A stretch of 64,000 nt of DNA from Candidatus Zixiibacteriota bacterium. Its GTDB lineage: Bacteria > Zixibacteria > MSB-5A5 > GN15 > FEB-12. Below the pieces are notes generated by a model that ran no database searches, was not told the DNA's origin, and was given only the letters and a program-made list of their open reading frames with translations. A program made the translations under genes and the position numbers. The stretch lies in assembly GCA_029860345.1 (NCBI GenBank), contig JAOUBJ010000001.1, positions 195,089-259,088 on the forward strand, read 5' to 3'. Shown here piece by piece: positions 30,946 through 60,070 of this stretch (positions are counted from its first letter, which is position 1; the number at the start of each line of letters is the position of its first letter).

Positions 30946-31058
30946 GAAACACACTCCGCCCCGCCGTCGGCGGGCCATCCCTCTCAAGAGGGGACCCTAT
31001 AAATGAGTCTTGGCCCTACATGCGCCACCAACCTCATGCTGAGCGGAGTCGAAGCATG
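30946..31058. repeat. Hairpin-module cluster, including the left 49-bp direct repeat (30946-30994) and a GAGCGGAGTCGA-loop hairpin (31035-31058)
   Basis: 30946-30994 matches 34865-34913 at 46/49. It contains hairpins cccgcc-gtc-ggcggg and ccctc-tcaa-gaggg. 31035-31058 is catgct/agcatg around the loop gagcggagtcga. Confidence 0.8.
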
Positions 31059-31411
31059 ACACAGCAGAACCGTGAGTAACCGCGAAATGGCTTTGTTTTG
31101 CGGAAAAAAGCTTTTCCCGGGTCCCCCCTCTGAGCAAATGGGTTCGTTTGGTGGGTTTTTGTTTCCCGGTAATAGAATCGATGGTGAATGCGCTGGCCTG
31201 AATAGACACTTATGCATCATTGTGGTCCTTTATAGAATGATGAGAACCCGTGATTTGGATTGGGTCGGTAGTGTTTATGTGCGAGGTGTGGAGTCAGCCC
31301 TGCAGGTGTCGGCACGGGTGCGAAATGTGATTGCCCACGGGAAGACCATGGAGTACCTTTCGTTGATTTGGAATTGCAACTGTGGTATGTGGGTCTTTGG
31401 AGGAGAAGTAG

Positions 31412-32866
31412 ATGGAGGAAATCTATCCCAAACAGCCGTTTGACGATGTCCATCGGTTCATTGGCGAACTCAAAGCTGATGAACACACGGTTGATGGTCT
31501 TCAGATCGTCGCCCAATACTCATTGGATAAGCCGGGTCCAATAAGGATAGTCATCGAGGGCGATTCAGAAGTTCGCAAGACGTTAAGAACCGTACTCGAC
31601 AAGAACCCACACTCGCTGTCAGTAAAGAGCACCGACAAAGACGAAGGTGGAAAGCGCATTCTCATGGATGATGTATGGCTAAAAGACTGGCACAGTTCGG
31701 AGTTTCCCGACTTTCTGGGCAGGTTTGGGACCAGATCACCTGACGATCGACTGTTCCGCCCGATTGTGGAACTTAGGGCAAGTAGCCTACTTGCCACCCC
31801 TGAAACATTCATGGGTGATTCGGAACGACCTCACATTGAGTACTTCTTCCCAGCGCAACACAATTTCTGGGCGTTGTACGTTTTGGAGGGTCAGCGGGAA
31901 TCACAGTCCGGGTTGGATCCAGAACGTGGTTGCGAGGTCTTGATTGGCAGAGACCTGCCATTTAGTGCAAAGCTATTGCCGTCTAGACTGGAGAGGTTCG
32001 ACCAGGCAAGCGGATACATGTGGACCTCCCGGAATCACTCGCTGAAGCTCAAGCTCGATGGCGAAGCTGGGGAGGTCTCTCTTAAGGAGTGTATGCCATA
32101 CGCAGACGCTGTTTCCCTCGCGGTCTCGGTGGCAACCCGCACTAGAACGGCATGGCTTCGTGCCCACATAGGATTGCGTAAGGAAGTCTCTCGGTTTATG
32201 GTTGCACGGCTAGAACTCGAGGAGCGGGGGGTCAGCTATGCCCCGTGGCTCATCGATGTTGGATCATCCTTGAGGATGTACCTTGACACTGCGGTCAATA
32301 GAATCCGGGAGTTCAGCAATCAAGGTATAGATCTCCGTGTTGCTCTAGAGTCCTGGCATCAGGCAAGACTTCAGACCAATACTACGAATCAGTTCCTATT
32401 GCTCTTTGTGTGTTTGGAGAAGCTAAAGGATCTTTATGCCAGGAAGGCTGGACTGCTACAAATCCAATCAGATGCAGAGTACATAAAGCTCGCATCCGCT
32501 ATAGACGGTGTGCTCGGAGATTGTATTGCGGAACCAAAGATAAGGCGGCAGGTCAGCTCTAAACTCCGAGAACTAAATCGACCAACTTTTCGCTCAGTGC
32601 TGCAGCGAATGCTTGATCACTATAAAGTTCCATGGCGCGATTTGTACCCACCAGATGCAAAACTGGGATTTATTCGGACACGTGATACGTTGTTGCACTC
32701 AACCGACCCTGTACCACCTGACAGACTCTACAACGATATGGAGCGGGTACAAGCTATTGTCGATAGGCTATTGCTCAGATTGCTCGGATGGGATGATCTG
32801 TCCGCTACGCCTTCTGAATACACGCTGGAGCGTCTATCGAAGGTTCACGACAATGAGGCTTCGTAG
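31412..32866 (+). CDS. Hypothetical protein with a C-terminal Rx4H (HEPN-like) motif
   Basis: 484 aa with a strong RBS (GGAGGAGAAGTAG ATG). GC is ~10 points lower than neighbouring genes on sampled lines. The C-terminal helical half contains FIRTRDTLLHS (R-x4-H). No other family recognised. Confidence 0.6.
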   Translation: MEEIYPKQPFDDVHRFIGELKADEHTVDGLQIVAQYSLDKPGPIRIVIEGDSEVRKTLRTVLDKNPHSLSVKSTDKDEGGKRILMDDVWLKDWHSSEFPDFLGRFGTRSPDDRLFRPIVELRASSLLATPETFMGDSERPHIEYFFPAQHNFWALYVLEGQRESQSGLDPERGCEVLIGRDLPFSAKLLPSRLERFDQASGYMWTSRNHSLKLKLDGEAGEVSLKECMPYADAVSLAVSVATRTRTAWLRAHIGLRKEVSRFMVARLELEERGVSYAPWLIDVGSSLRMYLDTAVNRIREFSNQGIDLRVALESWHQARLQTNTTNQFLLLFVCLEKLKDLYARKAGLLQIQSDAEYIKLASAIDGVLGDCIAEPKIRRQVSSKLRELNRPTFRSVLQRMLDHYKVPWRDLYPPDAKLGFIRTRDTLLHSTDPVPPDRLYNDMERVQAIVDRLLLRLLGWDDLSATPSEYTLERLSKVHDNEAS

Positions 32867-32874
32867 TTGAATAT

Positions 32875-32955
32875 GTCGAGACCCGCCCTTTGACTGCGCT
32901 CGGGGTGACGGAGTGTCGAAACCTCGCTTCGCGACCCCTTCGGGTCAGGGGTTTC
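32875..32955. repeat. Hairpin-module cluster
   Basis: gtcgaaacc...ggtttcgac is a 9-bp stem enclosing tcgc-ttc-gcga and gaccc-cttc-gggtc, followed by ctacaag. A degenerate reverse copy of the GAGCGGAGTCGA-type module sits at ~32881-32908. Confidence 0.7.
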
Positions 32956-33086
32956 GACCTACAAGACTGTTATCGGCGTCCTGAACAAACAGAGTTCGCA
33001 ATGTTTTGAGATTGATTCTCTGTTTTGTGACACTTATCCTTAAGAGTCTTTAAGGAATCAAAAAACGTTGTCATGGTATCTACGCG

Positions 33087-34787
33087 ATGAGTGAATTGGC
33101 TTATTTACGAGACTTGGTTATCATTCTCAGCTTTGGCGTGATTATCGTTACTCTATTTCATAGGTTGAGACTCCCCTCTATTGCAGGCTTCATTTTTTCC
33201 GGGTTACTTGTCGGACCCCATGGTTTTGGATTCATAAGTGATGCTCATCAAATTGAAGTTCTGGCCGAGATCGGAGTTGCCCTGCTCCTATTCGGCATTG
33301 GATTGGAACTATCCCTGGACAAACTCAGAAGGCTTTGGAGGTTGATTGTGGTCGGCGGCGCCCTGCAGGTTGGGTTAACCGTTTGCGCTGCCTATGCGAT
33401 TGCAAGGACGTTTGAGATTCCTGGTCAATCTGCTCTTTTCATCGGATTCGTGCTAGCCTTATCGAGTACCGCAATAGTCATGCGCGGCTTGCAACAAAGA
33501 GGCGAACTCGACGCTCCTCATGGTCGCCTGATCCTGGGGATACTGGTGTCTCAGGATTTCAGCGTAGTTCCCATGATGCTCGCTATCCCGATACTGGTCG
33601 GAGACGATATTCCGGCCTCTGTCTATTTGAACACAATGTTGCGCGCTGTCGGCATTATCATTGCCGTTCTGGCAGCCGCCCTCCTTATTGTTCCGCGGAT
33701 ACTACGCTTCGTTGCCAGGACCAGGCAGAGACAACTGTTCATACTCACCGTCTTTCTGATATGCATCGGCACGGCTTGGCTGATAACCTGGTCGGGGGCT
33801 TCGCTTGCTATCGGCGCGTTTCTGGCCGGACTGGTTGTTGCCGGGAGTGAGTACCGACATCAGGCTCTGGCCGACTTGATCGCGTTCCGTGAGGTGTTTG
33901 CAAGCGTGTTTTTTGTATCGATTGGGATGTTACTGGCTCCGTCGCTAATAGTCGAGAACATTGTTTTGGTTCTTGCTCTCCTAATGGCGATTCTGATCGG
34001 GAAAGCGGTGATTACGTTTGTCGCTGCCAGGTTACTCCGGATGCCACTTAGAGTTTGCTTGATGACAGCCGTTGCCCTGGCCCAGGTGGGCGAGTTTTCG
34101 TTCGTCTTACTGTTCTCGGTTCAGGGCAGCGACCTGATTGATAAGAATCTGGAAAGTTCCTTAGTATCGGCAGCCATTCTCTCCATGTTCGTTACTCCCT
34201 TTGCCATGTCATTTGGCCCTCGCCTTGCGGCCGGGCTCGGCAAGCTTCCTCGCCTGAGACGACTGCTCGATGTGGACGTAGCCGAAAACGCGACTGCTTC
34301 AGTTGGTGGAATGCGAGATCACGTGATTGTTGGCGGCTACGGTTTTGCAGGAAGGGAGTTGACCAAAGCTCTAAGAGACCATGAAGTACCTTTAGTTGTG
34401 GTGGATATAAACATCGACAATGTGAAGAAAGCGTCACAAGAGGGCGCTATCGCTTTTTTCGGCGATATTACCAGTCAGAGTGTCCTCGCCAAGCTGGGGG
34501 CTGAGTGTGCGGGGGAGTTGGTACTTCTGGTTAATGACCCCAAAGCGGCTGAGCAGGCTGTACGAGTGGCCAGACGACTTGCTCCCAACCTGCATATAGT
34601 GGTGCGAACGCATTACTTGCTCGACATTGAGCCGATTATTTCCGCCGGCGCTAACCAGGTGGTGCCCTCCGAACGTGAAGCTGCTGTTGAGGTCACATCA
34701 TTGGTGCTCAATCGGCATCAGATAGACAATCGGCGGATTGCCGACCTTAGCAACCGAATCCGTAGTCAATCTGAAGATGATGTTTGA
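33087..34787 (+). CDS. CPA2-family cation:proton antiporter with C-terminal RCK/TrkA-N domain (KefB/C-like)
   Basis: 566 aa. ~12 TM helices followed by a Rossmann motif (VIVGGYGFAGRELTKAL). Lower GC than the surrounding regions. Confidence 0.8.
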   Translation: MSELAYLRDLVIILSFGVIIVTLFHRLRLPSIAGFIFSGLLVGPHGFGFISDAHQIEVLAEIGVALLLFGIGLELSLDKLRRLWRLIVVGGALQVGLTVCAAYAIARTFEIPGQSALFIGFVLALSSTAIVMRGLQQRGELDAPHGRLILGILVSQDFSVVPMMLAIPILVGDDIPASVYLNTMLRAVGIIIAVLAAALLIVPRILRFVARTRQRQLFILTVFLICIGTAWLITWSGASLAIGAFLAGLVVAGSEYRHQALADLIAFREVFASVFFVSIGMLLAPSLIVENIVLVLALLMAILIGKAVITFVAARLLRMPLRVCLMTAVALAQVGEFSFVLLFSVQGSDLIDKNLESSLVSAAILSMFVTPFAMSFGPRLAAGLGKLPRLRRLLDVDVAENATASVGGMRDHVIVGGYGFAGRELTKALRDHEVPLVVVDINIDNVKKASQEGAIAFFGDITSQSVLAKLGAECAGELVLLVNDPKAAEQAVRVARRLAPNLHIVVRTHYLLDIEPIISAGANQVVPSEREAAVEVTSLVLNRHQIDNRRIADLSNRIRSQSEDDV

Positions 34788-34864
34788 TTCGGGCCGGACT
34801 GCACAATCTCCCTAAATCTCACCGCACCTGATTCGTGCAATGGTTGACGCGCGGCGCGGACAAA

Positions 34865-34913
34865 GAAACACACCCCGCCCCGCCGTCGGCGGCCCACCCC
34901 TCTCAAGAGGGGA
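34865..34913. repeat. Right copy of the 49-bp direct repeat
   Basis: gaaacacaccccgccccgccgtcggcggcccacccctctcaagagggga differs from 30946-30994 at 3 of 49 positions. Confidence 0.8.
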
Positions 34914-35077
34914 AGAAAAGAAATCTGCGGTACCGGCATTCCATTTCTACTGCAGGACCCTTCTCGATGCGAATACGAACACTCTTGCCGCAAAAGGTGG
35001 GGATTTCGTAGTAGTTGACAATCCTGGACTATGACTTGAGGATGATCCTGTCGGCCTTTCATTAATAGAGGGGAAGT

Positions 35078-35208
35078 CTTGTAGGGCGGGTCCGTCTTCG
35101 CCTGCGCGCCGCGGCGTGAACCCGCCATCCGTGAAAGGAGAACAAGGCTCCTAATCTCCAGAAGATGACGCTTGTACAAAGATGGATTCCCGCCTTCGCC
35201 GGAATGAC
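35078..35208. repeat. Hairpin-module cluster (GTAGGG-type module with an internal insertion; ATTCCC...GGAAT-type module)
   Basis: 35080-35126 is gtagggcgggtccgtcttcg[cctgcgcgccgcggcgtg]aacccgcc, compared with the uninterrupted copy at 38672-38699. 35184-35208 is ggattcccgccttcgccggaatgac. Confidence 0.7.
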
Positions 35209-35221
35209 AGATAACGCGCCT

Positions 35222-36511
35222 TTAACCGACAATCCCTGCAAAACCCGCCGGGTCGGTGTCACCTTCGGTGTTGATGACGAGAACGCGGGATGTGGAATCA
35301 ATGTGCAAAAACTCACGGGCAGGTGTAAACGCAGGATCGTTAACGAGTGTCGTGAGAGCTGCCAAACCGGCCGCGCCTGACTCGCCGGAGATTATCCGTG
35401 GGTCATCGTCTGTCGGATAAAAACAGCTCCGCATTGCCTCACGACCGGAGTCGTCACTGATGGACACGAACAGATCATAGCCCTGTTTCACGAAGGGCCA
35501 GGCAATCGGCGATGGTGTGCCGCAATTCAACCCGGCCATAATCGATGATGGGTCGCCTGCAATCGTTATTGGTTCACCATCGGTGGTTTGTATCGACTGC
35601 ATGCAACAGTCGGCAGTCAGTGGTTCGACCGAAACAAGTTTCGGATGCGGTTCGGGATAGATGCGGTTGTAATACCACGCAGCAGCAGCCGCCAGCGCCC
35701 CGACACCGGCTTGCACGATCACCACGTCGACCTGGTTGGCGGCATCTTTATGGATCTCTTCGAACATGGTCAGGTATCCCGCTTGTATCCACCGAGGTAT
35801 CTGCTCATAACCGGGCCAGCCGGTGTCGGAGAGTATCTGCCAGTCACGCGCAAGCGCGTCTTCTCTGCAACGAGCCACAGCAGCATCATAAGATCCATCC
35901 ACAACGATAACTTCAGCACCCTCGTTGCGGATGTTTTCGATTCGCGCCGGGACCGTTTCTTTTGGCATGTAGATCACTGCCTTTTGGGCAAGTTGGCGCG
36001 CCACCCAGGCGACACCGCGGCCATGGTTGCCGTCCGTTGCCGTAGTGAACGTGAAACTCCCGGACGGCAACGGTGAATCTCTGTAGAACCGCTCGGACGG
36101 CGGGCAACTTTGAGAGTTTTCGTTGAGCAACTGTTTGATGACCTGATAGATTGCATAGGTGGAGCCGAGCGCTTTGAAAGCGTTCAACCCGAATCGATGC
36201 GATTCGTCCTTGACCAACAACTCCCCAATGCCGAGTCGCTCAGCCAACACCGGCAGCGACACCAACGGCGTCGGCGCGTACTCTTTGAGTGATCGATGCA
36301 CCGATGACGCTTCGCAGCTTTTGAACTCGGAATTGATCGCATCATCCCAGATGGGAGCAACCTGTCGGTGCCTGTTGATTTCAAAGCATGGTTCCATGGC
36401 GAACAAGCTACAACTATCGCCACTTGCGGTCAATGATTTCGAGTCGACAAAAAAAGCGGGACCTCCGGTTGAAACCGGAAGCCCCGCCCCGCGGACGGCG
36501 GAGAGGGTCAT
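35222..36511 (-). CDS. dpaL: Diaminopropionate ammonia-lyase (PLP-dependent, fold type II)
   Basis: 429 aa. YAPTPL...LLVKDESHRFGLNAFKALGSTYAI matches the DAP ammonia-lyase PLP-lysine region as I recall it from E. coli YgeX. The start ATG 36511 overlaps the upstream stop (ATGA). An alternative internal start is ATG 36397. Confidence 0.75.
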   Translation of the reverse strand: MTLSAVRGAGLPVSTGGPAFFVDSKSLTASGDSCSLFAMEPCFEINRHRQVAPIWDDAINSEFKSCEASSVHRSLKEYAPTPLVSLPVLAERLGIGELLVKDESHRFGLNAFKALGSTYAIYQVIKQLLNENSQSCPPSERFYRDSPLPSGSFTFTTATDGNHGRGVAWVARQLAQKAVIYMPKETVPARIENIRNEGAEVIVVDGSYDAAVARCREDALARDWQILSDTGWPGYEQIPRWIQAGYLTMFEEIHKDAANQVDVVIVQAGVGALAAAAAWYYNRIYPEPHPKLVSVEPLTADCCMQSIQTTDGEPITIAGDPSSIMAGLNCGTPSPIAWPFVKQGYDLFVSISDDSGREAMRSCFYPTDDDPRIISGESGAAGLAALTTLVNDPAFTPAREFLHIDSTSRVLVINTEGDTDPAGFAGIVG

Positions 36512-38532: not shown

Positions 38533-38620
38533 GGTTTTCCTCTCCGTCGAATCGTTTTCTATGTCAATTTCTGTCGCGCCTTTCGTATCAGGGGTGCCGC
38601 CAGCGGTCATCTCTTGCACA

Positions 38621-44551: not shown

Positions 44552-45969
44552 AGATGTTGCTTGGCGGTCAGTGGGTCGACCGCGACGAGAAGATCGATGT
44601 CTGTGACCCCTTCGACAACTCGGTAATCGATACGGTTCCCAGTGGCAAAGCAGACGACGCTGAACTGGCCTTGGCTTCGGCAACCGCCGGATTTGAAATC
44701 ACCAAACGGATGTCCGTCTATGACCGGGCGCAGATTCTCTACAAAGCAGCGGGTCTGATCTCCGATCGGCTGGAAGAGTTCGCCCGGATAATCGCCCGCG
44801 AAGGTTCCAAGACGATCAACGAAGCGCGCAAGGAAGCGGGCCGTTGCGTCAACACGATTACATGCTCGGCCGAAGAAGCCAAACGCATCCTCGGCGAGAC
44901 TATACCCTGGGACTCGTTCCCCGGCGGTGAGAAGCGTCGCGGCTACTACTACCGTTTCCCCATTGGTGTCGTGCTGTGTATCACGCCGTTCAACGATCCG
45001 CTCAATCTGGTGGCCCACAAACTGGGTCCGGCCATCGCCGCGGGCAACTCGGTGATTCTCAAACCGGCCACGGTTACGCCGCTGTCGGCTATCATGTTAG
45101 TCGAAGTGCTTCTTGAGGCCGGACTGCCACCGAATGCAGTTCAACTCATCACCGGCTACGGTTCGAAAATCGGCGATCAACTGGTCAGCGACGAACGAGT
45201 GCGCATGGTGTCGTTCACCGGCGGTGTCGAAGCGGGCAAACAGATAGCATCCAAAGCAGGCATCAAAAAGATCGGCATGGAACTCGGTTCCGATTCGCCG
45301 GTGATCGTCTGGAAAGATGCCGACATGCAACTGGCCGTCGAGTCATGTGTCTCCGGCGCTTTCTGGGCGGCAGGACAAAACTGTATCGGCGTCCAGCGGT
45401 TGCTCGTGCACAAGGATATCTATGACGAGTTCAAAACAGAATTCGTCGAACTCACCAAGACATACAAGATCGGTGACAAACTCGACGAGTCCACGCAGAT
45501 GGGTCCGATGATAACCGAAGCCGAAGCCAAACGAGTAGAAAAATGGGTCAAAGACGCAGTCGCCGGTGGCGCCAACCTGCTCACCGGCGGTGGCCGCACC
45601 GGCGCGTTGGTCGAGCCGACCGTGCTGGACAACGTGCCCGAAGATGCCAAGGTCCATTGCGAAGAAGTATTCGGTCCGACCGTGAACCTATACCCGGTGG
45701 ATGATCTGGACAAAGCAATCGCTGAGGCCAATGCTCTGCCTTACGGTTTGCTCGCGGCCATTTTCACACGTGATGTTGAAACCGCTTTCAAGGCCGCGTA
45801 TGAACTTGACTGTGGTGGTGTGATGATTAACGACTCGACCGATTACCGATTGGACTCGATGCCGTTCGGCGGCGTGAAGTATTCCGGGTTGGGCCGCGAA
45901 GGGCTCAAGTTCTCATTGCAGGAGATGACCGAACCCAAAGTCATCTGCTTCAACCTGCCCGGGATATAG
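44548..45969 (+). CDS. NAD(P)-dependent aldehyde dehydrogenase
   Basis: 473 aa with an ATGA overlap with the upstream gene. ALDH motifs FTGGVEAGK, MELGSDSPVIV (Glu), AAGQNCIGVQRLLV (catalytic Cys), EEVFGP. Confidence 0.85.
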   Translation: MKMLLGGQWVDRDEKIDVCDPFDNSVIDTVPSGKADDAELALASATAGFEITKRMSVYDRAQILYKAAGLISDRLEEFARIIAREGSKTINEARKEAGRCVNTITCSAEEAKRILGETIPWDSFPGGEKRRGYYYRFPIGVVLCITPFNDPLNLVAHKLGPAIAAGNSVILKPATVTPLSAIMLVEVLLEAGLPPNAVQLITGYGSKIGDQLVSDERVRMVSFTGGVEAGKQIASKAGIKKIGMELGSDSPVIVWKDADMQLAVESCVSGAFWAAGQNCIGVQRLLVHKDIYDEFKTEFVELTKTYKIGDKLDESTQMGPMITEAEAKRVEKWVKDAVAGGANLLTGGGRTGALVEPTVLDNVPEDAKVHCEEVFGPTVNLYPVDDLDKAIAEANALPYGLLAAIFTRDVETAFKAAYELDCGGVMINDSTDYRLDSMPFGGVKYSGLGREGLKFSLQEMTEPKVICFNLPGI

Positions 45970-46534
45970 TGGCAAGCCCCTTTTTTGCGCTTCGCGCAGC
46001 ATGCTTTTTGGCGCCGTCAAGCGACCCCGCGTGACGGTTTGGGAGTTGGAAGACGGGTGTCGGGCGAGATCGCCCAACACCACCCTCGAAATGACGGCCG
46101 ATGACGGGTGGCCGTCTCAAGCCTTGTTTGGGACGGACTTCTGTGTCTGCGAAGAGTCACCCCCAAAGCGACTTTGAGGGTGCCACCCAGTCGCCAATGG
46201 CGCCTCTGGCGCCAACCTCACCTTGAGCGGAGTTGGAGGGTGCTTGCATCCAATCACGCTTCATGCCTCGACTCCGCTCGGCATGACATGGATGAACTTG
46301 TGCCCCCTTTGTCATTCCCGCGAAGGCGGGAATCCATCTTCAATGTTACCACGTGCCGTCAAGCGACCCCGAGTGACGGCTTTGGCAGTTCTTCAGTATG
46401 GTGGGGCCGTCTTCGGACCCGCCGCGATTGTCAGGACCACAAGGATCGTGACCTACAAGGTGACGGCGCGCGTAGCGCGAAAAACAGGCTTGCCTGTGTC
46501 GGGCGAGGTCGCCCAACACCACCAACGAAATGGT
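45969..46534. repeat. 566-bp intergenic region built almost entirely of hairpin modules, several present twice
   Basis: M1 ggcaagcc..ttttttgcgcttcgcgc at 45971-45997 and reverse at ~46467-46494. M2 ccgtcaagcgaccccg.gtgacgg at 46014-46037 and 46356-46379. M3 gtgtcgggcga.gtcgcccaacaccacc..cgaaatg at 46057-46093 and 46496-46532. M4 at 46219-46242 and reverse at 46262-46285. M5 at 46311-46335. M6-like at 46401-46423. Confidence 0.8.
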
Positions 46535-48787
46535 TTACCGCGACTCCTCGTCTGAGGTCAACTCTTCCAACGCCGCTTTCGTCTTTTCACGTCTGGCCTG
46601 TTTTTCGGCAATTTCACGCTCACGCAAGTCTACCGTCTGAATTGTCGGGTTATTCACGGGCGTAGGATCACCGGCACCGGTTTGGTCCATTCCTGCATCC
46701 CCCATATTTGAAACTGCCTGAACCGTGCCATACGAGGTTGGGAAGTAAGTGGCTGTCAAGCTTCCATAACAGATCTTTGCTGTAATCGTGTTTTCTTTCA
46801 ACGCCTCAAACCGGAAATCGTAGAAACCGGCCGAGTCCTTGTAGTACACCCGGTGACAGTTGACATCGAAGTCGCTAAAGAAAGAAGAGCCGGCAGAAAC
46901 GTAGGCGCCGAGTCCAATCCTGGTATAGTACCCAGCGGTAGCCGAACCGCCCTCGGTTTCATCTATCTGGGCCTTTATTCGACCGTTATTCGTAGTGCCG
47001 CTTATTTCGGCAAAAGCATGCCCGTTGAGCACTATATACCCGGGGGCCGGAATCTGAATCCTGACCGTCGCAACGTCTTCCATAGTGTTAAGAGCCGATA
47101 TGGTGTGACAGCCGGTATTTCGATCCAGCACGATCCCCGGTTCGTTCATTAGTTCGAGATCGTCGACCGACTCTTCGTGCAGAACTACGCGTTGATTGTT
47201 CAGATAGGTACTTCCATTGCCCATGAAGGCGATTGTGACGCTGTCGTTGGTATCCTTCAGTTTGAGTTGACCGCCGTTGGGACCTGCGTAGATTCTCACT
47301 TGATCAACGGCAGTGTCGGCCTGATGGAACATTTTTATCTGCCCGTAGGTCCAGCCCGACAATTGCATCGTCCTGCGGTCCTGATCGGACCCCCACTCAT
47401 AGAAATTCAGGTGATTGCTCTCAGTATCAAACTCCCAGACCGGACTATCAATAGTGCTTCTACTGATCATCAGGTCACCCCGCATCGAAGTGTTACCCAT
47501 AACAAACACGTCCCCGTTCAGGTTGGCGGCTCGATTGGATACACCACCAGAGGCCGAAGCAGATATGGCCGTGTTGTGACCAGCACCATCGGCGGCAACG
47601 TAAAGGCCATAGTTGGTGGCGGTCGGCTCCCCGCCGCCTACTCCACCGTAGAGGGCATAATTGACATTTGCACCCTGAGCTGTACTGAATACGCCATAGT
47701 TGTTGTCCGCCGTGACAACTCCGTCGGAGTTGGCCTGGCTATATATCCCATAGTTGTGAGTTCCGTCCTCAGCCGTTACGGAGAGCCCATAGTTGGCCTC
47801 GTCTCCGTAAGATCGCCCATAGAAAGCGTAATTGACTTCACCGTCATGGGCTTCTGCATACGAGCCGTAATTCGTACCCAGCCCATCGGCCGTAAACCGC
47901 CCCCCAGTCTTGCCTCCGATGTCGCCGGTAGCAGCACCGTTAATGGCAATGTTGTAGTTTTGACCGCCGGTAACAGCAGCCCGTAGGGCTGTTTTGCTGG
48001 TGCCCAAACCCATCATCCACAGATCCACGGCGGGGCCGTTGCCGAAGTTTTTCAACGAAAAAATCGGATCCTCGGTATTTGTGTTAAGACTTAGCGGTGC
48101 TATGAAGTTGCCGGCCATCGCTACCGTATCCGGACCGTACGAAGAACTGTCCGACCAGTTCCAGCCGGTCGTCGAACCTCCGATAGAATCATCAGCCAGC
48201 GTCCAAGACGAACCCACCCACTTCATGATCTGGCCTTCGGAAGCGCCGTTCTGCCCAATGTCGGCAAGATCGATTCCACCGTCCGTAACGGCATCGGCAG
48301 AGTCGGCTATACCGGCTTGGGCCGCTGAAGTCGCCGAGATGGCTGTCTGAGCTTCCAACGCTGCCTGTGCCGAATCTGACATCTCTGACCGGAGCGCGTA
48401 TGGTACCGCTACCAGCGCTATCCGGGGGCTGTACTCAGGATCGGCCCCGATCTGAATGCCAAGGTAGCGAGTACCTCCGTCGAACACACTGTTAGTCAGA
48501 GGATTCACTTCACCGAGCAGCACGGTAAACAATCCGTTAGTGGTAGCAACGGTACGAGTCTCTGTCCAGAGATCAGCCCCGGCTTCAAAGGAATCGTAAA
48601 TAGTAAACGTCACGCTGTAGTCGCCGTCGGCTACCGGATCGCCGGTATCATCGGTTAGCCTTCCTTGATAGTTCATAGTAGTCGGAACGGCAGCAGACAC
48701 AGCGGTTGTCATCAGCAGGATTGCTAAGGCTGCAATGTACCTGGTGGTCAGAACGGCGCGGGGAATCATAGGTGTCTCCTCTGGCAT
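46535..48787 (-). CDS. Secreted repeat protein (tail-fibre/adhesin-like) with a C-terminal charged coiled coil
   Basis: 750 aa with a signal anchor. The N-terminal MNYQGRLTDDTGDPVADGDYSVTFTIYD...LWTE...NGLFTVLLG module resembles ones I recall seeing on fibre-like proteins. The central region has degenerate NYG/NYA-containing repeats. The tail is REREIAEKQARREKTKAALEEL. Confidence 0.6.
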   Translation of the reverse strand: MPEETPMIPRAVLTTRYIAALAILLMTTAVSAAVPTTMNYQGRLTDDTGDPVADGDYSVTFTIYDSFEAGADLWTETRTVATTNGLFTVLLGEVNPLTNSVFDGGTRYLGIQIGADPEYSPRIALVAVPYALRSEMSDSAQAALEAQTAISATSAAQAGIADSADAVTDGGIDLADIGQNGASEGQIMKWVGSSWTLADDSIGGSTTGWNWSDSSSYGPDTVAMAGNFIAPLSLNTNTEDPIFSLKNFGNGPAVDLWMMGLGTSKTALRAAVTGGQNYNIAINGAATGDIGGKTGGRFTADGLGTNYGSYAEAHDGEVNYAFYGRSYGDEANYGLSVTAEDGTHNYGIYSQANSDGVVTADNNYGVFSTAQGANVNYALYGGVGGGEPTATNYGLYVAADGAGHNTAISASASGGVSNRAANLNGDVFVMGNTSMRGDLMISRSTIDSPVWEFDTESNHLNFYEWGSDQDRRTMQLSGWTYGQIKMFHQADTAVDQVRIYAGPNGGQLKLKDTNDSVTIAFMGNGSTYLNNQRVVLHEESVDDLELMNEPGIVLDRNTGCHTISALNTMEDVATVRIQIPAPGYIVLNGHAFAEISGTTNNGRIKAQIDETEGGSATAGYYTRIGLGAYVSAGSSFFSDFDVNCHRVYYKDSAGFYDFRFEALKENTITAKICYGSLTATYFPTSYGTVQAVSNMGDAGMDQTGAGDPTPVNNPTIQTVDLREREIAEKQARREKTKAALEELTSDEESR

Positions 48788-51927: not shown

Positions 51928-51941
51928 TTATGGGAGATAAC

Positions 51942-52790
51942 ATGCTTAAAAAGACACTTCTGATATTTGTGGCCCTGAGTCTATCCCTGGCTACTGTACC
52001 GGACTTGACGGCCGGAGGCATTAGTGCCGATGCCGGTCTCACACCGGCGCACGACAAGTGGATGTTTCGCACGCAAGCGCGCTTGAACAGATTGAAGAAC
52101 GCGCCCGACCAGATGACCCGCGAGATGGACATGTACATGTTCCCGCTGGTGATCGCCTACGGCGTCCGCTCGGATCTGACCGTGATGATCCGTCAGCCGC
52201 TTATGCGTATGAACATGACTATGGCCGGCAACACCACTCACACCACCGGGTTTGGCGACCTGATGCTTATGACCAAGTACCGCGCCGTCCGGCGCAACAC
52301 CCCGACCTATACCTTCGGCGTCGCACCACTGCTTGGCATCAAGCTCCCCACCGGCGAAGATGACATCTCCGCGAACGCAACTTCGCTCAAAACCGGGTTG
52401 TTCGTCTCGGGCCGCATTCAACCGTGGGCGTCCGAGTTGAATTTTACTTATACACTCAACGGTCTGACCGGCGACGACGACCGCGAGGAGTACCAGGTTC
52501 TCGAATTCGTGGGCGCTTTTGCTCGTCAGTTCAGTCTCACCGAGGACGGACGCAGAGCGATCGCGCCGGTGGTCGAGCTGTCGTATGAACATGCTACCGC
52601 CACAGAGATCGATAATGTTGAACAGCCTAACAGCGGTGGATCGTTGCTCCGGGTCGCACCGGGCGCGAAGTTAACAATCTCAGGGGTCGTCTTTGAGTCA
52701 CTGTTGTGGATTCCGGTCTGGGAAGATTTGAACGGCAACCAACTCGAGTACGACATCGGCGGCCTGATCGGCCTGCGCGTGATGCTGTAA
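51942..52790 (+). CDS. Outer-membrane beta-barrel protein (possibly the MetA-pathway/transporter-like family)
   Basis: Start at ATG 51942 with a GGGAGA RBS. Signal peptide, alternating beta-strand pattern, TGFGDLMLMTKY motif, aromatic-rich C-terminus. The specific family is a guess. Confidence 0.5.
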   Translation: MLKKTLLIFVALSLSLATVPDLTAGGISADAGLTPAHDKWMFRTQARLNRLKNAPDQMTREMDMYMFPLVIAYGVRSDLTVMIRQPLMRMNMTMAGNTTHTTGFGDLMLMTKYRAVRRNTPTYTFGVAPLLGIKLPTGEDDISANATSLKTGLFVSGRIQPWASELNFTYTLNGLTGDDDREEYQVLEFVGAFARQFSLTEDGRRAIAPVVELSYEHATATEIDNVEQPNSGGSLLRVAPGAKLTISGVVFESLLWIPVWEDLNGNQLEYDIGGLIGLRVML

Positions 52791-53112
52791 GGTGGCAAGC
52801 CACTCTTTCGCGCTTCGCGCGCCCGTACTGTCACCCACTGCTTGACCGTGTCACCCTGAGCGGAGTCGAAGGGTCCATCTTCTCTTGTAGGGCGGAACCC
52901 TCGTAGCGGTTCCGCCTTTCAGTCCCACAGCAAGCTGTGGGGCACCCCAACTCGAATACGACGTTGGCGGCTTGATCGGCCTGCGCGTGATGTCGGAACC
53001 ACAGGGGTTCCGACCTACTATTCGGACCTACTATTCGAACTTCGCCGGAATGACACAGTCAAGATGAGATTGCCGCGGCCTCGCGAAGCGCGCGGCCTCG
53101 CAATGACGGAGC
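52791..53112. repeat. Hairpin-module cluster that also contains a 45-nt copy of the upstream gene's 3' end
   Basis: M1 52794-52820; M4 52852-52874; M6 52887-52916. Gene-end copy at 52948-52992. gtcggaacc-acagg-ggttccgac at 52992-53014. Tandem 13-mer gacctactattcg x2 at 53012-53037. attgc...gcgaagcgc...gcaat hairpin at ~53068-53105. Confidence 0.8.
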
Positions 53113-54257: not shown

Positions 54258-54344
54258 TGCCGGAACTTGCCAGTTGAGAACAACCCGATTTATCGGTGGT
54301 TTGCCTGGTTGAGTTTCTACCCGGAGACTGAGCTGGTGAATTAG
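54211..54344 (+). repeat. Direct duplication of the DUF3179 gene's last 47 nt, including the stop
   Basis: 54211-54257 ggtttgcctggttgagtttcttcccggagactgagctggtcgattag versus 54298-54344 ggtttgcctggttgagtttctacccggagactgagctggtgaattag. There are 3 mismatches and a 40-nt spacer. Confidence 0.85.
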
Positions 54345-54505
54345 TTGCTAGTCTCTTGTGGTGGCTGATTCTTCGGACTCGGCCACTACCCACGCGATCT
54401 GAAGATCACGCGGGCACAAGATACTCAATTAACAAAATAGGACATTTCTATCTTGCTAAAAACCGGACATTTCTGTTTTGCCTTGACATTGGGGCTATTT
54501 GGGGA

Positions 54506-54534
54506 TTGACTAAACGCTCTATTTTCGGTATATT
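54506..54534 (+). promoter_or_regulatory. Candidate sigma70-type promoter for the 1657-aa gene
   Basis: TTGACT 54506-54511, a 17-nt spacer, then TATATT 54529-54534. A second TTGACA sits at 54483-54488. It is ~140 nt upstream of ATG 54673. Confidence 0.35.
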
Positions 54535-54672
54535 CTCACTCGATAGGGTATTTGTCATTTCTTCAGCCGCGGTAGTGCAGGCTATCGGCAGGCTGTGCCC
54601 TCGGAGGTTCTGCGAACCTCTCGCTGAATCTCCATACCACGACGACGATATCAGGACACCGAGGAGTACAAC

Positions 54673-57600: not shown

Positions 57601-59646
57601 GACGGTGAGGCGCCACTGTTGTTCGCAATCGGTCACCACGGCTTTATCAGCACATTGAACTCTGCCACGGGTGAGGAAATCTACCGTCGTCGTATTACCT
57701 ATGGTGGATTCCCCAACTCAATAGCTCTGAGCGCAGCGATAGGACCCGGCGTCGTGGCTATTAGTGACCTTTACGGTACACTTTCTGTTCTGGCCAAAGG
57801 TGAAGATCGTCCGCGCCTGGAAATTCAGTCGTACCAGCCTTCTCCATCGGTGGAGTTTGGTCCGGCCACTTCATTGCACGTGCCGATCCCGAACCGGTTG
57901 GTCAACACCGGTTGTGCCGACCTGACCTTCGGTCAGCTTGAGACCAACACCTCTGCGAACCATCCGTGGATACCGCCGGACTTCGCTCCGGCCAACGTGC
58001 GTCCCGATGTAATGGATCGCGCAGCCGGTATCACTGATCGTTTGACCGAAGGCTTCGAGACCAAAGCTATCCCGGCGCGACCGGAAGCTGAGGTCGATGA
58101 CTATTTCGTCATTCGTGACCGTGGTGAACAGTCGTTGAACCTGGGTGCCGATGCAGGAGTTCCGTTCCTGCAGTATGCGACTCACACCGAAGCGGTCGTT
58201 TGGCCACACGCCGGTGACATTCTTGCCGCCGGTGACACGGCTGACCTCGTTATCGATGTCAACCAGTCGCTGATCGTTCGCGGACCACAGGATTTCTATA
58301 TGGTGATCCCCAGCGACGATCCTGATTTCTATCTGCACGACGTCTGTGGCAACACGCTCTACGGTCCGCCCGAAATCCACGTAACTATCGTCGGTGGCTG
58401 TCTTGTTGATACCACCACCATGCAGTTCGGCATGGGTGGCGGTAACACTCAACTCGTGACCAACAATGGCCGTATCGGTACCGGCGACTGGGACCCGCAC
58501 GCAATGGATATAGACGGCGACGACGCCTCGATCTACCAGGGTTCGTTCATCTATGCCACCGGCCTATATGAGGTGGCCCTAAGCACCCAGGATTGGTATT
58601 CCGGCGGCGGCGAGGACGAGGCGTATCGGTCGATGCAGCCGGACCCGAACTGGTGTGACGACCAGTGCAAGGCGCACATCGATGAGGGTGTCGTCCTGAG
58701 TTGTCTCGGTGGCTACTCCTCAGACGGTATAACTTACACCCCAATCATGGGTAACCGAGTTTGTGTAACCTATCTTGACTCCGTTCAGGACTTCGGAACT
58801 TCTTGGGATTGGTCAAACTACGATGCACCGTTCAGTAATGATCTGACCATGGGTCTCATGGTGAACTCACGCACGGTGGGTGCTTATGACTTTGAGCCGC
58901 TGAAGGACCTCACCGTTGACATCATGGAATTCACCGAGCGCAACGGCGACTCGGTCACAGGCTGGGCTTTCGGCACCACCATGGACTACGACGTCGGAAG
59001 TGATGATATCGCTTCACGTTCTGCGGAAGGATCGGCGGCCTGGGTCTCCAACGGTGGAGTGGGCGATGTCCAATGGGGTATGATCAAGTTCCCGTTCGGA
59101 TGCGGAAGTAACGAGGCGGCAGGCGGCAACAATACAAACGTAGACTACGTCCCGATGATCAATACGGTGTCCGGACACGGCGACGGCATGTGGTTTAACG
59201 TTCCCACCCTCTATCTCGATTCCGCCTGGGACTACCTCAACCGGCCGGCCGGTGAGTATTCTCAAGCGCCGTTCACCAGCGATAGGGAAGCTCACTTCAC
59301 CATTGCCAAACACGATTTTGCCGGTGGCGATACTTATGAGATGGCTGTGGCTCAGTTCGGTCTGCACGGCACTTCGGGCGATGCAACTGAAATCAATGCC
59401 CTGGCCAAGCTGGCCAACAAGTGGCTCGGTTTTGGTCGTGGCGATGTCAACAATGACGGCAATGTTGATCTTGGCGACGTAGTTTGTCTGGCCAGGTACG
59501 TGACTGGTAACGGCCCCGGACCGATTCCGTTCATGCACCTGGGTGATGTCGATTGTGACGGTGACGTTGATATGGACGATGTGGTGTATCTTGCCGAATT
59601 CCTGTATGACAATGGACCTTGCCCGTGTGGTGACTGGTGCTTCTAG
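54673..59646 (+). CDS. Giant secreted protein: three N-terminal ~180-aa beta-sandwich-like repeats, a PQQ/BamB-like beta-propeller, and a C-terminal dockerin-like module
   Basis: 1657 aa. Signal peptide MSHRFSLTLLTLLILLTLTGWTWA. Repeated W.W..PDAWGD/PHDAYG/PDAYGD modules. Propeller repeats (SAWDFATGAMIWS, VAVDAATGALYSGW, YAIDAATGAINWQL, YAINTSDGSVAYA). C-terminus GDVNNDGNVDLGDVVCLARYV...GDVDCDGDVDMDDVVYLAEFLY. Confidence 0.75.
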   Translation: MSHRFSLTLLTLLILLTLTGWTWAGNTSKDGLNPIPISNPNAQLYNDIEDARPAPATFKKPMTEGPFEVQMSGVASSPPSAYFCEDLGYYDDTVTSVWVWSIPDAWGDDLMNMRFTVEEGIECTLKVGWVLMYGGFATGTPDMRVYLWDDDGFGFPGNKLDSTDVPNAAMGGSFWWAEANWSAADWVFTNGEEYHIGWTTLGGDGDTLWCVSDKGTGPHSYTGEQRASENWNGFWGTMYDDWGEDVCFLMTSERCCYELPFTDCYSQSWDEGTAYWWKAPHDAYGIIDYAQRFTVTGVETLQSVDIDVYDFTGSSSQNAGIVGNDDLIISVWDDNAGYPGSVIAQETVPAGTYVYHPAYTNVDFSSHNLVLGSGDFYVSFNSTGDLGAGDFEGTLSDDETDGHGRSYCIYGGDWWTIGDLFGIDVDMKYTANLCDDPFFECELAFYDTGPVYYWTLPDAYGDVANAQLIKSVGKACEVREVSWALHDFNPGVAYAHNSVVSVHEDVGGLPGPALASVTLTPADYVMYPGYTSVDFAPLAVSVQGLYWISIESLSPTEAEGIATLTDFGGGGWNYGAAELWNGFWGLLCLDWNGVPCDIAFVAKSYHCCQPHCCCPCQGDPGWATHQHDQQRTGASFNSFGDAQCDLTTQWCYTHPTNQIFYTGPAISGDKVVCAWDNEVKVFNLTTGFEAYTLSGFPLGNQIRCTPHIQDSVMYLTGGDQQSVSAWDFATGAMIWSRDITSVGVGGLFGQTRYGSFIILEQGSGDVLYFGTDDGAIVAVDAATGALYSGWTVNPVYIAPGAPLKSGSTDGLQLFYNTYPGGVEGDVYAIDAATGAINWQLSTSGGLQAAAVYPEGPQGGEGFAAPNAVSLENGLLFVNSSIAAPYHPGDGVFYAINTSDGSVAYAVPSHRPNTAGTAAGPVIDRARVYQAGQSWWATPPSGGLILAFNKTTGSYVWATSSPEYNTYRGDMALTCGKDGEAPLLFAIGHHGFISTLNSATGEEIYRRRITYGGFPNSIALSAAIGPGVVAISDLYGTLSVLAKGEDRPRLEIQSYQPSPSVEFGPATSLHVPIPNRLVNTGCADLTFGQLETNTSANHPWIPPDFAPANVRPDVMDRAAGITDRLTEGFETKAIPARPEAEVDDYFVIRDRGEQSLNLGADAGVPFLQYATHTEAVVWPHAGDILAAGDTADLVIDVNQSLIVRGPQDFYMVIPSDDPDFYLHDVCGNTLYGPPEIHVTIVGGCLVDTTTMQFGMGGGNTQLVTNNGRIGTGDWDPHAMDIDGDDASIYQGSFIYATGLYEVALSTQDWYSGGGEDEAYRSMQPDPNWCDDQCKAHIDEGVVLSCLGGYSSDGITYTPIMGNRVCVTYLDSVQDFGTSWDWSNYDAPFSNDLTMGLMVNSRTVGAYDFEPLKDLTVDIMEFTERNGDSVTGWAFGTTMDYDVGSDDIASRSAEGSAAWVSNGGVGDVQWGMIKFPFGCGSNEAAGGNNTNVDYVPMINTVSGHGDGMWFNVPTLYLDSAWDYLNRPAGEYSQAPFTSDREAHFTIAKHDFAGGDTYEMAVAQFGLHGTSGDATEINALAKLANKWLGFGRGDVNNDGNVDLGDVVCLARYVTGNGPGPIPFMHLGDVDCDGDVDMDDVVYLAEFLYDNGPCPCGDWCF

Positions 59647-60070
59647 GCCACAAGTGGCCCTTCTGGCGCTTCGCGCGGTCATAAATGACTCTTTCGCGCT
59701 ACGCGCGCCGTTCTGTGCGTGGTGTACGTCCTCATGCGCCACGGTGATAAATCACTTTCTCGCGCTTCGCGTGCCCAGAATCTAACTCAGTGCATCTCTT
59801 CAACCTCACCCTTAGCGGAGTCGAAGGGTGCACGGTCAAGCCGTGTTCTTGTGGCTATGCCACGCGTTGACCCAAAAGCGCGCGAAGCGCAAAAACCAGG
59901 CTTGCCTGTGGTTCGACTCCGCTCACCATGAGGTTGCGCGCGAAGCGCGAGAGACCCATTTATGGGTGTCATTCCCGCACCCCTTTGTCATTCCCGCGAA
60001 GGCGGGAATCTATCCGTATTGCGGTTCGCTCAAAGCTGAAGATGGACCCCCGCCTTCGCGGGGGTGACGA
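59646..60070. repeat. Hairpin-module cluster between the convergent giant genes
   Basis: ggccac-aa-gtggcc at 59646-59659. Three gcgct(t/a)cgcg units at 59659-59776. M4 at 59807-59830 and reverse at 59909-59927. M1 reverse at 59880-59906. M5 at 59987-60010 with a half-copy at 59968-59978. cccccgc-cttc-gcggggg at ~60046-60063. Confidence 0.8.

What the first reader, a model, noticed from the sequence alone, without database searches (positions are those of the whole stretch)
31035..59927. One module family keeps a 12-nt loop while its stem co-varies
The loop GAGCGGAGTCGA, or its reverse complement TCGACTCCGCTC, is flanked by different but always complementary arms: catgct/agcatg (31035-31058), cacctt/agggtg with a G-U pair (46219-46242), catgcc/ggcatg (46262-46285, reverse), accct/agggt (52852-52874), caccct/agggtg (59807-59830) and tggt/acca (59909-59927, reverse). 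Degenerate relatives lie at ~32881-32908 and ~46158-46183. A conserved loop with compensatory stem changes is the classic signature of selection on a folded nucleic acid, with the loop as the recognition element for a protein or RNA partner.
Basis: seen in the sequence. Interest (0 to 1): 0.6.

Follow-up and report, generated by a model that had tools for sequence, protein, structure and literature searches.

The report
Hairpin repeat tied to ssDNA nuclease
The repeated hairpin with a fixed 12-base centre and a freely co-varying stem is real, occurs in many bacterial phyla, and is most likely the single-stranded-DNA recognition site of a small GIY-YIG (Ssn-like) nuclease, in a sequence form that the published description of such sites does not match.

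Summary
GAGCGGAGTCGA occurs 4 times exactly in the window (0.01 expected), with 3 degenerate copies. All are intergenic and have complementary but different arms.

A genome scan found the same 12-mer in more than 15 phylum-level groups. Of 168 distinct copies, 122 have a perfect 4-bp inner stem (9 in shuffles), using 29 different stems. An unpaired 5' tag (T)GTCA (CCTCA in four window copies) is conserved. Only core position 6 varies.

Rfam has no family for it. Orientation relative to genes is unbiased, and the predicted stems are weak.

The element flanks a ~100-aa single-domain GIY-YIG gene: sense copies upstream, antisense copies downstream. In 80 loci found by the protein alone, 75 carry such elements within 300 nt, a 44-fold local enrichment.

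This is the SRM-ssn-SRM layout of the Ssn ssDNA nucleases (Chenal 2025) and fits the CGTC-tagged REP superfamily (Di Nocera 2013). The published SRM pattern matches 0 of 327 copies, yet it finds 4 canonical NTS-like SRMs in the same window.

Verdict: a new sequence variant of a known kind. No nuclease gene lies in the window, and there is no biochemistry.

The parts
31032..31059 (+). Element copy. Tag CCTC 31032-31035, 5' arm ATGCT 31036-31040, core GAGCGGAGTCGA 31041-31052, 3' arm AGCAT 31053-31057. Pairing extends to 7 bp (TCATGCT/AGCATGA). It lies 88 nt after the stop of ORF 30049-30945(+).
32884..32910 (-). Degenerate copy. Tag CGTCA, arm CCCC, core GAGCGCAGTCAA (G11 to A), arm AGGG (3 of 4 pairs). 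It is antisense to both flanking ORFs.
46216..46242 (+). Copy with a decayed core. Tag CCTC, arm ACCTT, core GAGCGGAGTTGG, arm AGGGT, with one G-T pair. It forms a tail-to-tail pair with the next copy.
46261..46288 (-). Element copy. Tag TGTC, arm ATGCC, exact core at 46268-46279, arm GGCAT. The stem is 7 bp (TCATGCC/GGCATGA).
52849..52877 (+). Element copy. Tag TGTC 52849-52852, arm ACCCT, exact core 52858-52869, arm AGGGT, then a CCA tail. It lies 60 nt after the stop of ORF 51930-52790(+).
59804..59830 (+). Element copy. Tag CCTC, arm ACCCT, core TAGCGGAGTCGA (G1 to T), arm AGGGT followed by G.
59908..59933 (-). Element copy. Tag CCTC, arm ATGGT, exact core at 59913-59924, arm ACCA (4 bp). 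It forms a tail-to-tail pair with 59804-59830, about 78 nt apart.
   Evidence: (I13)
46310..46337 (+). Canonical NTS-like Ssn-related motif, TGTCATTCCCGCGAAGGCGGGAATCCAT, in the same intergenic mosaic. It matches the published SRM search string.
   Evidence: PMC11893778
59986..60013 (+). Canonical NTS-like SRM, TGTCATTCCCGCGAAGGCGGGAATCTAT.
60042..60069 (-). Canonical SRM variant, CGTCACCCCCGCGAAGGCGGGGGTCCAT.
   Evidence: (I9, I25)
35182..35209 (-). Canonical SRM, TGTCATTCCGGCGAAGGCGGGAATCCAT.
   Evidence: (I2)
46156..46184 (+). A different GTCA-tagged hairpin: 11-bp stem with one mismatch and a CGA triloop. It shares the tag and the CACCC/GGGTG arm, but not the core.
   Evidence: read directly from the sequence

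Best explanation
The element is a short REP-like hairpin of the CGTC/TGTC-tagged, Ssn-related kind. It has four parts: an unpaired 5' tag (T/C)(G/C)TC; a 5-bp stem that only has to pair (A-T at its base, then 4 free pairs, with the pair next to the core always pyrimidine-purine); a sequence-fixed apical core GAGC-GNA-GTCGA; and often T-C or C after the stem. Proposed mechanism: when the DNA is single-stranded (during replication, recombination, or uptake or transfer of DNA), the strand carrying the tag folds. A small single-domain GIY-YIG nuclease of the Ssn type, encoded elsewhere in the genome, binds the hairpin. It reads the tag and the apical core by sequence and the stem by shape, and cuts the single strand a few bases 5' of the tag. 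The nuclease gene is itself flanked by inverted copies with the tags pointing outward, which looks like an insertion sequence. The dispersed single and paired copies, such as those in this window, would then be non-autonomous relatives or recruited sites. What is shown here: the anatomy, the covariation, the distribution across phyla, the lack of strand bias, and the tight and oriented linkage to the GIY-YIG gene. What is taken from the literature on relatives: ssDNA-only binding, cleavage upstream of the motif, and the importance of GTC. What is inferred: that this core class is bound and cut by its neighbouring nuclease, that the core carries the specificity, and that the window's host encodes such a nuclease.
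For: Real and non-random in the window. In 168 distinct exact-core copies from a genome scan, 122 have a perfect 4-bp stem, against a shuffle mean of 9.1 (maximum 20), with 29 different stems. Formal pair counts give 84% paired, all 5 pairs with double changes, and a covariation score of 0.51 against 0.19 (0 of 500 shuffles); the GTC tag is only 39% paired. Only core position 6 varies among copies that were not selected for it (A 17, C 10, T 3). The record titles name many phyla. Orientation relative to crude gene calls is 45 sense to 35 antisense. GIY-YIG genes lie next to the element in 6 of 120 scan loci, always in the same geometry. GIY-YIG is the most frequent Pfam family among 89 small neighbouring ORFs. 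In an independent sample of 80 loci found by the protein alone, strict elements occur at 2.06 per kb within 400 nt of the gene and 0.047 per kb farther away. Within 50 nt upstream there are 12 sense and 0 antisense copies; within 50 nt downstream there are 19 antisense and 2 sense. In that sample 75 of 80 loci carry a superfamily element within 300 nt, and 43 have the sense-upstream plus antisense-downstream pattern. With no tag required, GTCA is present in 90 of 100 class A copies. The proteins are 34-41% identical to GIY-YIG proteins flanked by exact NTS motifs. The published Ssn properties and the SRM-ssn-SRM layout come from PMC11893778. The tag variants CGTC/TGTC/CCTC and the statement that no dedicated transposase is known come from PMC3733652. 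The window also holds 4 canonical SRMs in the same intergenic mosaics.
Against: No GIY-YIG gene was found in the window or in the 10 kb beyond its right end, so the link to a partner in this genome is indirect. The published SRM search string matches none of 327 copies. In Neisseria the stem sequence matters for SsnA activity, whereas here the stem is free, so recognition must differ. The element-linked proteins are about as similar to E. coli YhbQ (30-33%), which is not known to have such repeats, as to NTS-linked Ssn proteins. Core class tracks protein similarity only weakly: 60.4% identity within a class against 57.8% between classes, although 0 of 2000 permutations reach this difference. 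Nearest-neighbour DNA folding gives weak hairpins, -1.4 to -6.8 kcal/mol with z-scores from -2.9 to +1.1. There is no biochemical test.
Confidence: 0.68

Rival explanations
1. It is a structured RNA element, such as a 3'-UTR stabiliser, terminator or attenuator, or a protein-binding loop (for example the GGA in the loop as a CsrA-type site), selected at the transcript level.
For: All window copies lie downstream of at least one gene, in co-directional or convergent gaps. Covariation is strong. A few G-T pairs occur.
Against: Sense and antisense orientations in co-directional gaps are 45 to 35, and convergent and divergent gaps are used equally (21 to 22). The copies in the window do not have a T-run after the stem. 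The stems are weak. There is no Rfam family. The element brackets a nuclease gene in inverted orientation, which transcript-level function does not require. Characterised Ssn proteins do not bind RNA.
Confidence: 0.1
2. It is a REP or REPIN mobilised by a Y1 HUH transposase (a RAYT, or the atypical subclass 2.6 or class 3 enzymes of Bacteroidetes, Acidobacteria and Planctomycetes).
For: The element is REP-like in size, is intergenic and forms inverted dimers. PMC6006769 reports atypical, non-GTAG structures beside subclass 2.6 and class 3 genes in the same phyla. GTAGGG-headed REPs coexist in the window.
Against: There is no GTAG or GTGG foot. No Y1 transposase family appears among the recurring neighbour families, where GIY-YIG ranks first. 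The gene bracketed by the element is GIY-YIG in 75 of 80 protein-first loci. The supplementary table of that paper held no GAGCGNAGTCGA element; its single GAGCGGAG hit lies inside a GTAG-type REP.
Confidence: 0.06
3. It is a generic selfish or structural palindrome (MITE end, gyrase or IHF site, recombination hotspot) with no dedicated protein. The GIY-YIG genes would simply be preferred landing sites.
For: CGTC repeats were reported to lack a dedicated transposase. Elements nest in other hairpin loops and form slippage-like arrays.
Against: The geometry around the gene is fixed and oriented, and local enrichment is 44-fold. An identical 12-mer across phyla with a free stem is hard to keep without a sequence-reading partner. 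The NTS/SsnA precedent shows direct binding.
Confidence: 0.12
4. It is chance, or simple duplication of one palindrome.
For: None beyond the small number of copies in the window.
Against: 4 exact matches against 0.01 expected. Six different stems occur among 7 window copies, and 29 among 168 copies elsewhere.
Confidence: 0.01

Closest known systems
Ssn-related motifs (SRM/NTS) and Ssn single-domain GIY-YIG ssDNA nucleases (Chenal et al. 2025, PMC11893778)
   Same: Both are high-copy intergenic hairpins with an unpaired (C/T)GTC tag directly 5' of the stem, and often a C after it. In both, a ~100-aa single-domain GIY-YIG gene is flanked on both sides by inverted copies. The proteins are homologous: 34-41% identity to NTS-flanked examples. 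Canonical SRMs sit beside the element in the same window mosaics.
   Different: The published degenerate SRM string matches 0 of 327 copies. In this element the basal stem is free to vary and a non-palindromic 11-12-nt apical core is fixed, whereas in NTS the palindrome sequence itself is needed and the loop is dispensable. Judging by the genome-scan record titles, the element is centred on Bacteroidota and other non-proteobacterial phyla. Activity on this motif is untested.
CGTC-tagged REP superfamily, families CGTC-1 to CGTC-4 (Di Nocera et al. 2013, PMC3733652)
   Same: The tag is CGTC with the same TGTC and CCTC variants. An A-T pair sits at the stem base. One copy has a CCA tail. The elements are intergenic, occur as inverted dimers, and have no transposase partner (window).
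   Different: The described families have 8-9 bp Watson-Crick stems and 4-5 nt loops. This element has 5 Watson-Crick pairs and 12 central bases. It reaches an 8-'pair' helix only if G.A, A.G and G-C pairs are assumed inside the core, which is an inference. The window dimers are tail-to-tail, not the predominant head-to-head.
REP/REPIN-RAYT systems
   Same: Both have short hairpins with an unpaired 5' guide tetranucleotide, many copies and inverted pairs. In both, a single-copy nuclease-type gene is bracketed by its own repeats, and the substrates are ssDNA hairpins.
   Different: The tag is GTC(A), not GTAG. The bracketed gene is GIY-YIG, not a Y1 HUH transposase.
Flavo-1 RNA motif (Rfam RF01705)
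   Same: They co-occur in Pedobacter locus L064.
   Different: The element is not Flavo-1. It sits as an insertion in the apical loop of two Flavo-1 copies.

Membership tests
Ssn-related motif (SRM) / Ssn system | Multi-copy hairpin repeat with an unpaired (C/T)GTC directly 5' of the stem | tested here: met
   The window tags are CCTC in four copies, TGTC in two and CGTC in one. GTCA is present in 90 of 100 copies collected without any tag requirement. The tag is only 39% paired.
Ssn-related motif (SRM) / Ssn system | Matches the published degenerate search string HGTCWYN(0-2)YYVSBRHN(0-5)WNVSBRGN(0-2)RNCYNB | tested here: not met
   0 of 327 GAGCGNAGTCGA copies match. The same regular expression finds 4 NTS-like motifs in the window, so the test itself works.
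Ssn-related motif (SRM) / Ssn system | Copies flank a single-domain ~100-aa GIY-YIG gene on both sides (SRM-ssn-SRM) | tested here: met
   6 of 120 DNA-first loci. 75 of 80 protein-first loci have an element within 300 nt, and 43 of 80 have sense upstream plus antisense downstream. This was not seen in the window itself.
Ssn-related motif (SRM) / Ssn system | The nuclease belongs to the Ssn clade (CDD cd10448; homolog of N. meningitidis SsnA) | tested here: inconclusive
   Pfam GIY-YIG, E = 5.6e-19. 34-41% identity to NTS-flanked proteins, but 30-33% to E. coli YhbQ. The best PDB relatives are UPF0213 proteins 1zg2 and 1ywl. No NCBIfam model matches.
Ssn-related motif (SRM) / Ssn system | Specific binding and cleavage of the motif as ssDNA only | not testable with these tools
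   Requires purified protein and oligonucleotides.
CGTC-tagged REP superfamily | Terminal CGTC/TGTC/CCTC tag, A-T at the stem base, short unpaired tail | tested here: met
   Tags as above. The A..T basal pair is present in 68 of 122 copies. A CCA tail follows copy 52849-52877.
CGTC-tagged REP superfamily | 8-9 bp Watson-Crick stem with a 4-5 nt loop (families 1-4) | tested here: not met
   Only 5 pairs covary, and 12 bases lie between the arms. The folds show a 12-nt loop.
REP/REPIN-RAYT | 5' GTAG/GTGG foot and association with a Y1 HUH transposase gene | tested here: not met
   The tag is GTCA or CTCA. No Y1 family recurs among the neighbours, and GIY-YIG ranks first.
Rfam structured RNA families | Reaches the gathering score of a curated covariance model | tested here: not met
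   0 hits in the window. The only hits in 10 loci are two Flavo-1 matches, each holding the element as a loop insertion.
Intrinsic terminator | G+C-rich stem followed by a T-run, oriented with the upstream gene | tested here: not met
   No T-run follows the window copies. Both orientations occur. Stems are weak.

The most novel reading that the evidence does not exclude
The element and its sister cores (GAGCYTGTCGA, GAGGCNCTCGA) form an undescribed, cross-phylum class of Ssn-type recognition sites. In this class the nuclease reads a fixed apical core plus the GTC tag and accepts any paired stem. That would be a naturally 'stem-programmable' ssDNA nuclease site. The gene-plus-inverted-hairpins unit would be a GIY-YIG-driven mobile element that seeds the genome with hairpins and can nest in the loops of other hairpins.
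Probability: 0.3. Interest if true: 0.75.

Novelty: new variant of a known kind. Interest (0 to 1): 0.55.

Why it matters
If correct, a very common and so far unnamed bacterial repeat gains a candidate protein partner and a testable mechanism. I recall this repeat as a source of many spurious small ORFs in Bacteroidota, Acidobacteriota, Verrucomicrobiota and Planctomycetota, but I did not test that here. The known target range of the Ssn ssDNA nucleases, which are of interest as ssDNA tools, would extend to a motif type with a different recognition logic: a fixed core and a free stem. It would also give CGTC-type REPs, reported in 2013 as lacking any dedicated enzyme, a general partner. For annotation, it argues for masking these hairpins and for naming the small GIY-YIG genes beside them.

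Tried and rejected
- **Rfam.** The window at gathering score gave nothing. The region 30900-33100 at E<=10 gave only a chance miRNA hit. Ten loci gave only Flavo-1, which merely hosts the element.
- **tRNA/tmRNA scan.** Nothing found.
- **Literature search for the literal sequences.** Only primers turned up.
- **REP/RAYT literature and supplements.** No GAGCGNAGTCGA element is listed; the single GAGCGGAG hit is inside a GTAG-type REP. The figure giving the CGTC family consensus for Gramella forsetii is not held, so I could not rule out that it shows this motif.
- **Nuclease gene in the window and its surroundings.** None in the window, in L001, or in the 10 kb beyond the right end. The look-up for the left end failed.
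- **Strain polymorphism.** The second sample's contig is 100% identical, so it gives no filled-versus-empty site comparison.
- **Thermodynamic support.** Weak; not used as evidence.
- **Internal pairing of the core.** A model with tandem G.A pairs, a G-C pair and a GNA-containing loop fits all three core classes and the free position 6. It cannot be tested, because those positions do not vary.
- **Co-variation of core class with protein clade.** Statistically present but small, so it is not used as strong evidence.
- **Ssn clade membership.** The paper's supplements are not held, and NCBIfam has no model.
Full report
**1. The observation.** GAGCGGAGTCGA occurs four times exactly in the window, at 31041(+), 46268(-), 52858(+) and 59913(-). 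The expectation is 0.01, and no shuffle reaches four. Three further copies have cores that differ by one or two bases: 59813(+), 46225(+) and 32890(-). They are complementary within each copy and differ between copies: TGCT/AGCA, CCTT/AGGG, TGCC/GGCA, CCCT/AGGG twice, TGGT/ACCA, and CCCC/AGGG in the degenerate one. All seven copies lie between long ORFs, and always downstream of at least one gene. The 'relative' at 46158-46183 is a different hairpin: it has a long stem and a CGA triloop, and it shares only the GTCA tag.

**2. A larger sample.** I scanned one genome per species for TCA-N4-GAGCGGAGTCGA, which leaves the four inner stem bases and the whole 3' side unconstrained.
- The record titles name Bacteroidota (many isolates and MAGs), Acidobacteriota, Verrucomicrobiota, Planctomycetota, Myxococcota, Chloroflexota, Zixibacteria, Latescibacterota, Calditrichota, Cloacimonadota, Marinimicrobia, Omnitrophota, Patescibacteria, Eremiobacterota, Methylomirabilota and Alphaproteobacteria.
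- Among 168 distinct exact-core copies, 122 have a perfectly complementary 4-bp inner stem. Shuffling the 3' arms gives a mean of 9.1 and a maximum of 20. Twenty-nine different perfect stems are used.
- On one copy per locus (122 sequences), the five stem pairs are 84% paired and all five show changes on both sides. The covariation score is 0.51, against 0.19 in shuffles (0 of 500 reach it) and 0.10-0.16 when the partners are slid.
- The three bases before the stem (GTC) are only 39% 'paired' with the 3' flank, so they form an unpaired tag.

**3. Anatomy.**
- The pair next to the core is always pyrimidine-purine (T-A or C-G). The 5' arm is pyrimidine-rich. The base of the stem is A, paired with T in 56% of copies. 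T-C or C usually follows the stem.
- Among copies in the fetched loci that were not selected for their core, the only variable core position is the sixth: GAGCG[A 17 / C 10 / T 3]AGTCGA.
- Near GIY-YIG genes (section 5) two sister cores appear in the same frame, GTCA-N4-core-N4'. They are GAGCYTGTCGA and GAGGCNCTCGA. Each has many different stems and the same tag: GTCA in 90 of 100, 77 of 85 and 19 of 25 copies of the three classes, with no tag required in the search.
- GAG at the 5' end and TCGA at the 3' end of the core are common to all three classes.
- One reading fits all classes and the free position 6. The helix continues into the core through G.A and A.G mismatches and a G-C pair, leaving a 5-6-nt loop. 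That would give the 8-pair geometry of the described CGTC repeats. This is an inference, because those positions never vary and so cannot be tested by covariation.

**4. What the element is not.**
- Rfam has no family for it. There are no hits in the window, only a chance hit at a permissive threshold, and in ten loci only two Flavo-1 matches. In those matches the element is an insertion in the apical loop.
- Nearest-neighbour folding as DNA gives weak hairpins, -1.4 to -6.8 kcal/mol, with z-scores from -2.9 to +1.1. The case for structure therefore rests on covariation, not energy.
- With crude gene calls, copies in co-directional gaps are 45 sense and 35 antisense, and convergent and divergent gaps are used equally (21 and 22). 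This argues against a function tied to the transcript strand.

**5. A protein partner.**
- All-against-all clustering of ORFs in the 120 loci gave one small family directly beside the element. It is a ~100-aa single-domain GIY-YIG protein (Pfam E = 5.6e-19). Its closest solved relatives are UPF0213 proteins 1zg2 and 1ywl.
- Including two decayed copies, it is present in 6 of 120 loci, always with the same geometry. One or more elements in sense orientation lie 20-100 nt upstream of the start codon. Antisense elements lie just after the stop. The tags point outward.
- GIY-YIG is the most frequent Pfam family among the 89 small ORFs within 400 nt of an element, and no transposase family recurs.
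- As an independent test, I collected 80 metagenome loci using the protein alone. Strict elements occur at 2.06 per kb within 400 nt of the gene and 0.047 per kb farther away, a 44-fold difference. Within 50 nt upstream there are 12 sense and 0 antisense copies. Within 50 nt downstream there are 19 antisense and 2 sense.
- Counting the three core classes, 75 of 80 loci have an element within 300 nt, and 43 have the full sense-upstream, antisense-downstream arrangement.

**6. Comparison with what is known.**
- Chenal et al. 2025 (PMC11893778) describe Ssn, a family of single-domain ~94-aa GIY-YIG nucleases. They bind a hairpin repeat (NTS, CGTCATTCCCGCGMAVGCGGGAATCYRG, and related 'SRM' motifs) only as ssDNA, and cut a few bases upstream.
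- In that system the three bases before the palindrome (GTC) are critical for cleavage and the C after it for binding. Loop identity is dispensable, and neither dsDNA nor RNA is a substrate. The genes are typically flanked by their motif on both sides. In Neisseria the system lowers transformation by motif-bearing DNA.
- Di Nocera et al. 2013 (PMC3733652) defined the CGTC-tagged REP superfamily. Its tag variants are TGTC and CCTC, exactly the variants seen in this window. It has A-T pairs at the stem base and CCA tails, and no dedicated transposase was known.
- The element shares the tag, the position of the C, the gene architecture and a homologous nuclease. That nuclease is 34-41% identical to GIY-YIG proteins that I found flanked by exact NTS motifs in viral-collection contigs.
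- It differs in that the published SRM search string matches none of 327 copies. The same expression picks up four canonical NTS-like SRMs in this window, at 46310(+), 59986(+), 60042(-) and 35182(-), in or near the same intergenic mosaics.
- It also differs in logic. In NTS the palindrome sequence matters and the loop does not. Here the stem is free and the centre is fixed.
- Membership of the nuclease in the Ssn clade proper (CDD cd10448) could not be tested. It is about as close to E. coli YhbQ (30-33%) as to the NTS-linked proteins.

**7. Most likely mechanism.** When the tagged strand is single-stranded it folds. An Ssn-like nuclease binds it, reading the tag and the apical core by sequence and the stem by shape, and nicks just 5' of the tag. 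The consequences could be restriction or trimming of incoming or exposed ssDNA, as shown for Neisseria. They could also include spread of the hairpins, given that the nuclease gene sits in an insertion-sequence-like unit. The window shows only dispersed copies. No GIY-YIG gene lies in the window or in the 10 kb beyond its right end. The partner in this genome is therefore inferred. The host belongs to the FCB group, judging by a T9SS sorting domain.

**8. Rivals.**
- A transcript-level RNA element is disfavoured by the neutral orientation, the weak stems, the missing T-runs and the nuclease link.
- A RAYT-type REP is disfavoured by the tag and by the absence of Y1 genes among the recurring neighbours.
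- A partner-less palindrome is disfavoured by an identical core across phyla and by the oriented, 44-fold enrichment at one gene family.
- Chance is excluded.

**9. Novelty and limits.**
- The kind of system is known (Ssn/SRM; CGTC REPs). This sequence class, its recognition logic and its breadth across phyla are not in the texts or supplements I could read.
- I could not see the figures or the Ssn paper's supplementary data, so earlier depiction cannot be excluded.
- The genome scan required TCA before the stem, which inflates tag conservation in that set. The protein-first set removes this bias.
- Gene calls for the orientation test were crude.
- Core class and protein similarity are associated only weakly.
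- Nothing here is biochemical.

Noticed in passing
window 45969-46535 and 59646-60270: These intergenic gaps are BIME-like mosaics of at least four hairpin families. They hold the element studied here, canonical NTS-like SRMs, GTAGGG-headed REPs (also at 35077 and 38668; within these gaps at 46392, and at 52883 in a third gap) and GCGCGAAGCGCG modules (45979, 52802, 59688, 59754, 46466, 59878, 59936). GTAG-type and CGTC-type repeats therefore coexist in one genome.
   Followed up: partly
window 52739-52784 and 52947-52992: The last 46 nt of ORF 51930-52790 are repeated at 91% identity 208 nt downstream. The ~160-nt repeat mosaic that holds element 52849-52877 is thus bracketed by a direct duplication of the gene end. 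This looks like an insertion that restored or duplicated the 3' end of the gene (D6).
   Followed up: no
L064 5168-5259 and 5450-5541 (-): Two Flavo-1 RNA (RF01705) copies each carry the element as an insertion in their apical loop. Conversely, in L053, L024 and L018 other hairpins sit between GAGC and GTCGA of the element. Hairpins appear to nest in each other's loops.
   Followed up: partly
L136, L139, L165, L127 (flanks of GIY-YIG genes): These loci have tandem arrays of partial units (tag + 5' arm + core, periods of 15-22 nt). The units are joined where the GTC of the core meets the GTC of the next tag, and only the last unit has a 3' arm. This suggests slippage or cleavage-rejoining at GTC.
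   Followed up: no
window 30931-30994 and 34850-34913: A 64-nt direct repeat (92% identity) holds two small hairpins, CCCGCCGTCGGCGGG and CCCTCTCAAGAGGGG. The first copy starts inside the 3' end of ORF 30049-30945; the second lies just after ORF 33087-34787 (D10).
   Followed up: no
window 8429-13551 (+) and 21251-22436 (-): There are many diverged copies of an FG-GAP/VCBS-type coding repeat in several large ORFs (D1/D2; Pfam annotations). ORF 60270-63968 carries a T9SS Por_Secre_tail, which places the host in the FCB group.
   Followed up: no
L258 7785-8165; L283, L316, L205: Contigs filed as viral (IMG/VR) hold GIY-YIG genes with exact NTS motifs beside them: on both sides in L258, on one side in L283, L316 and L205.
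   Followed up: partly
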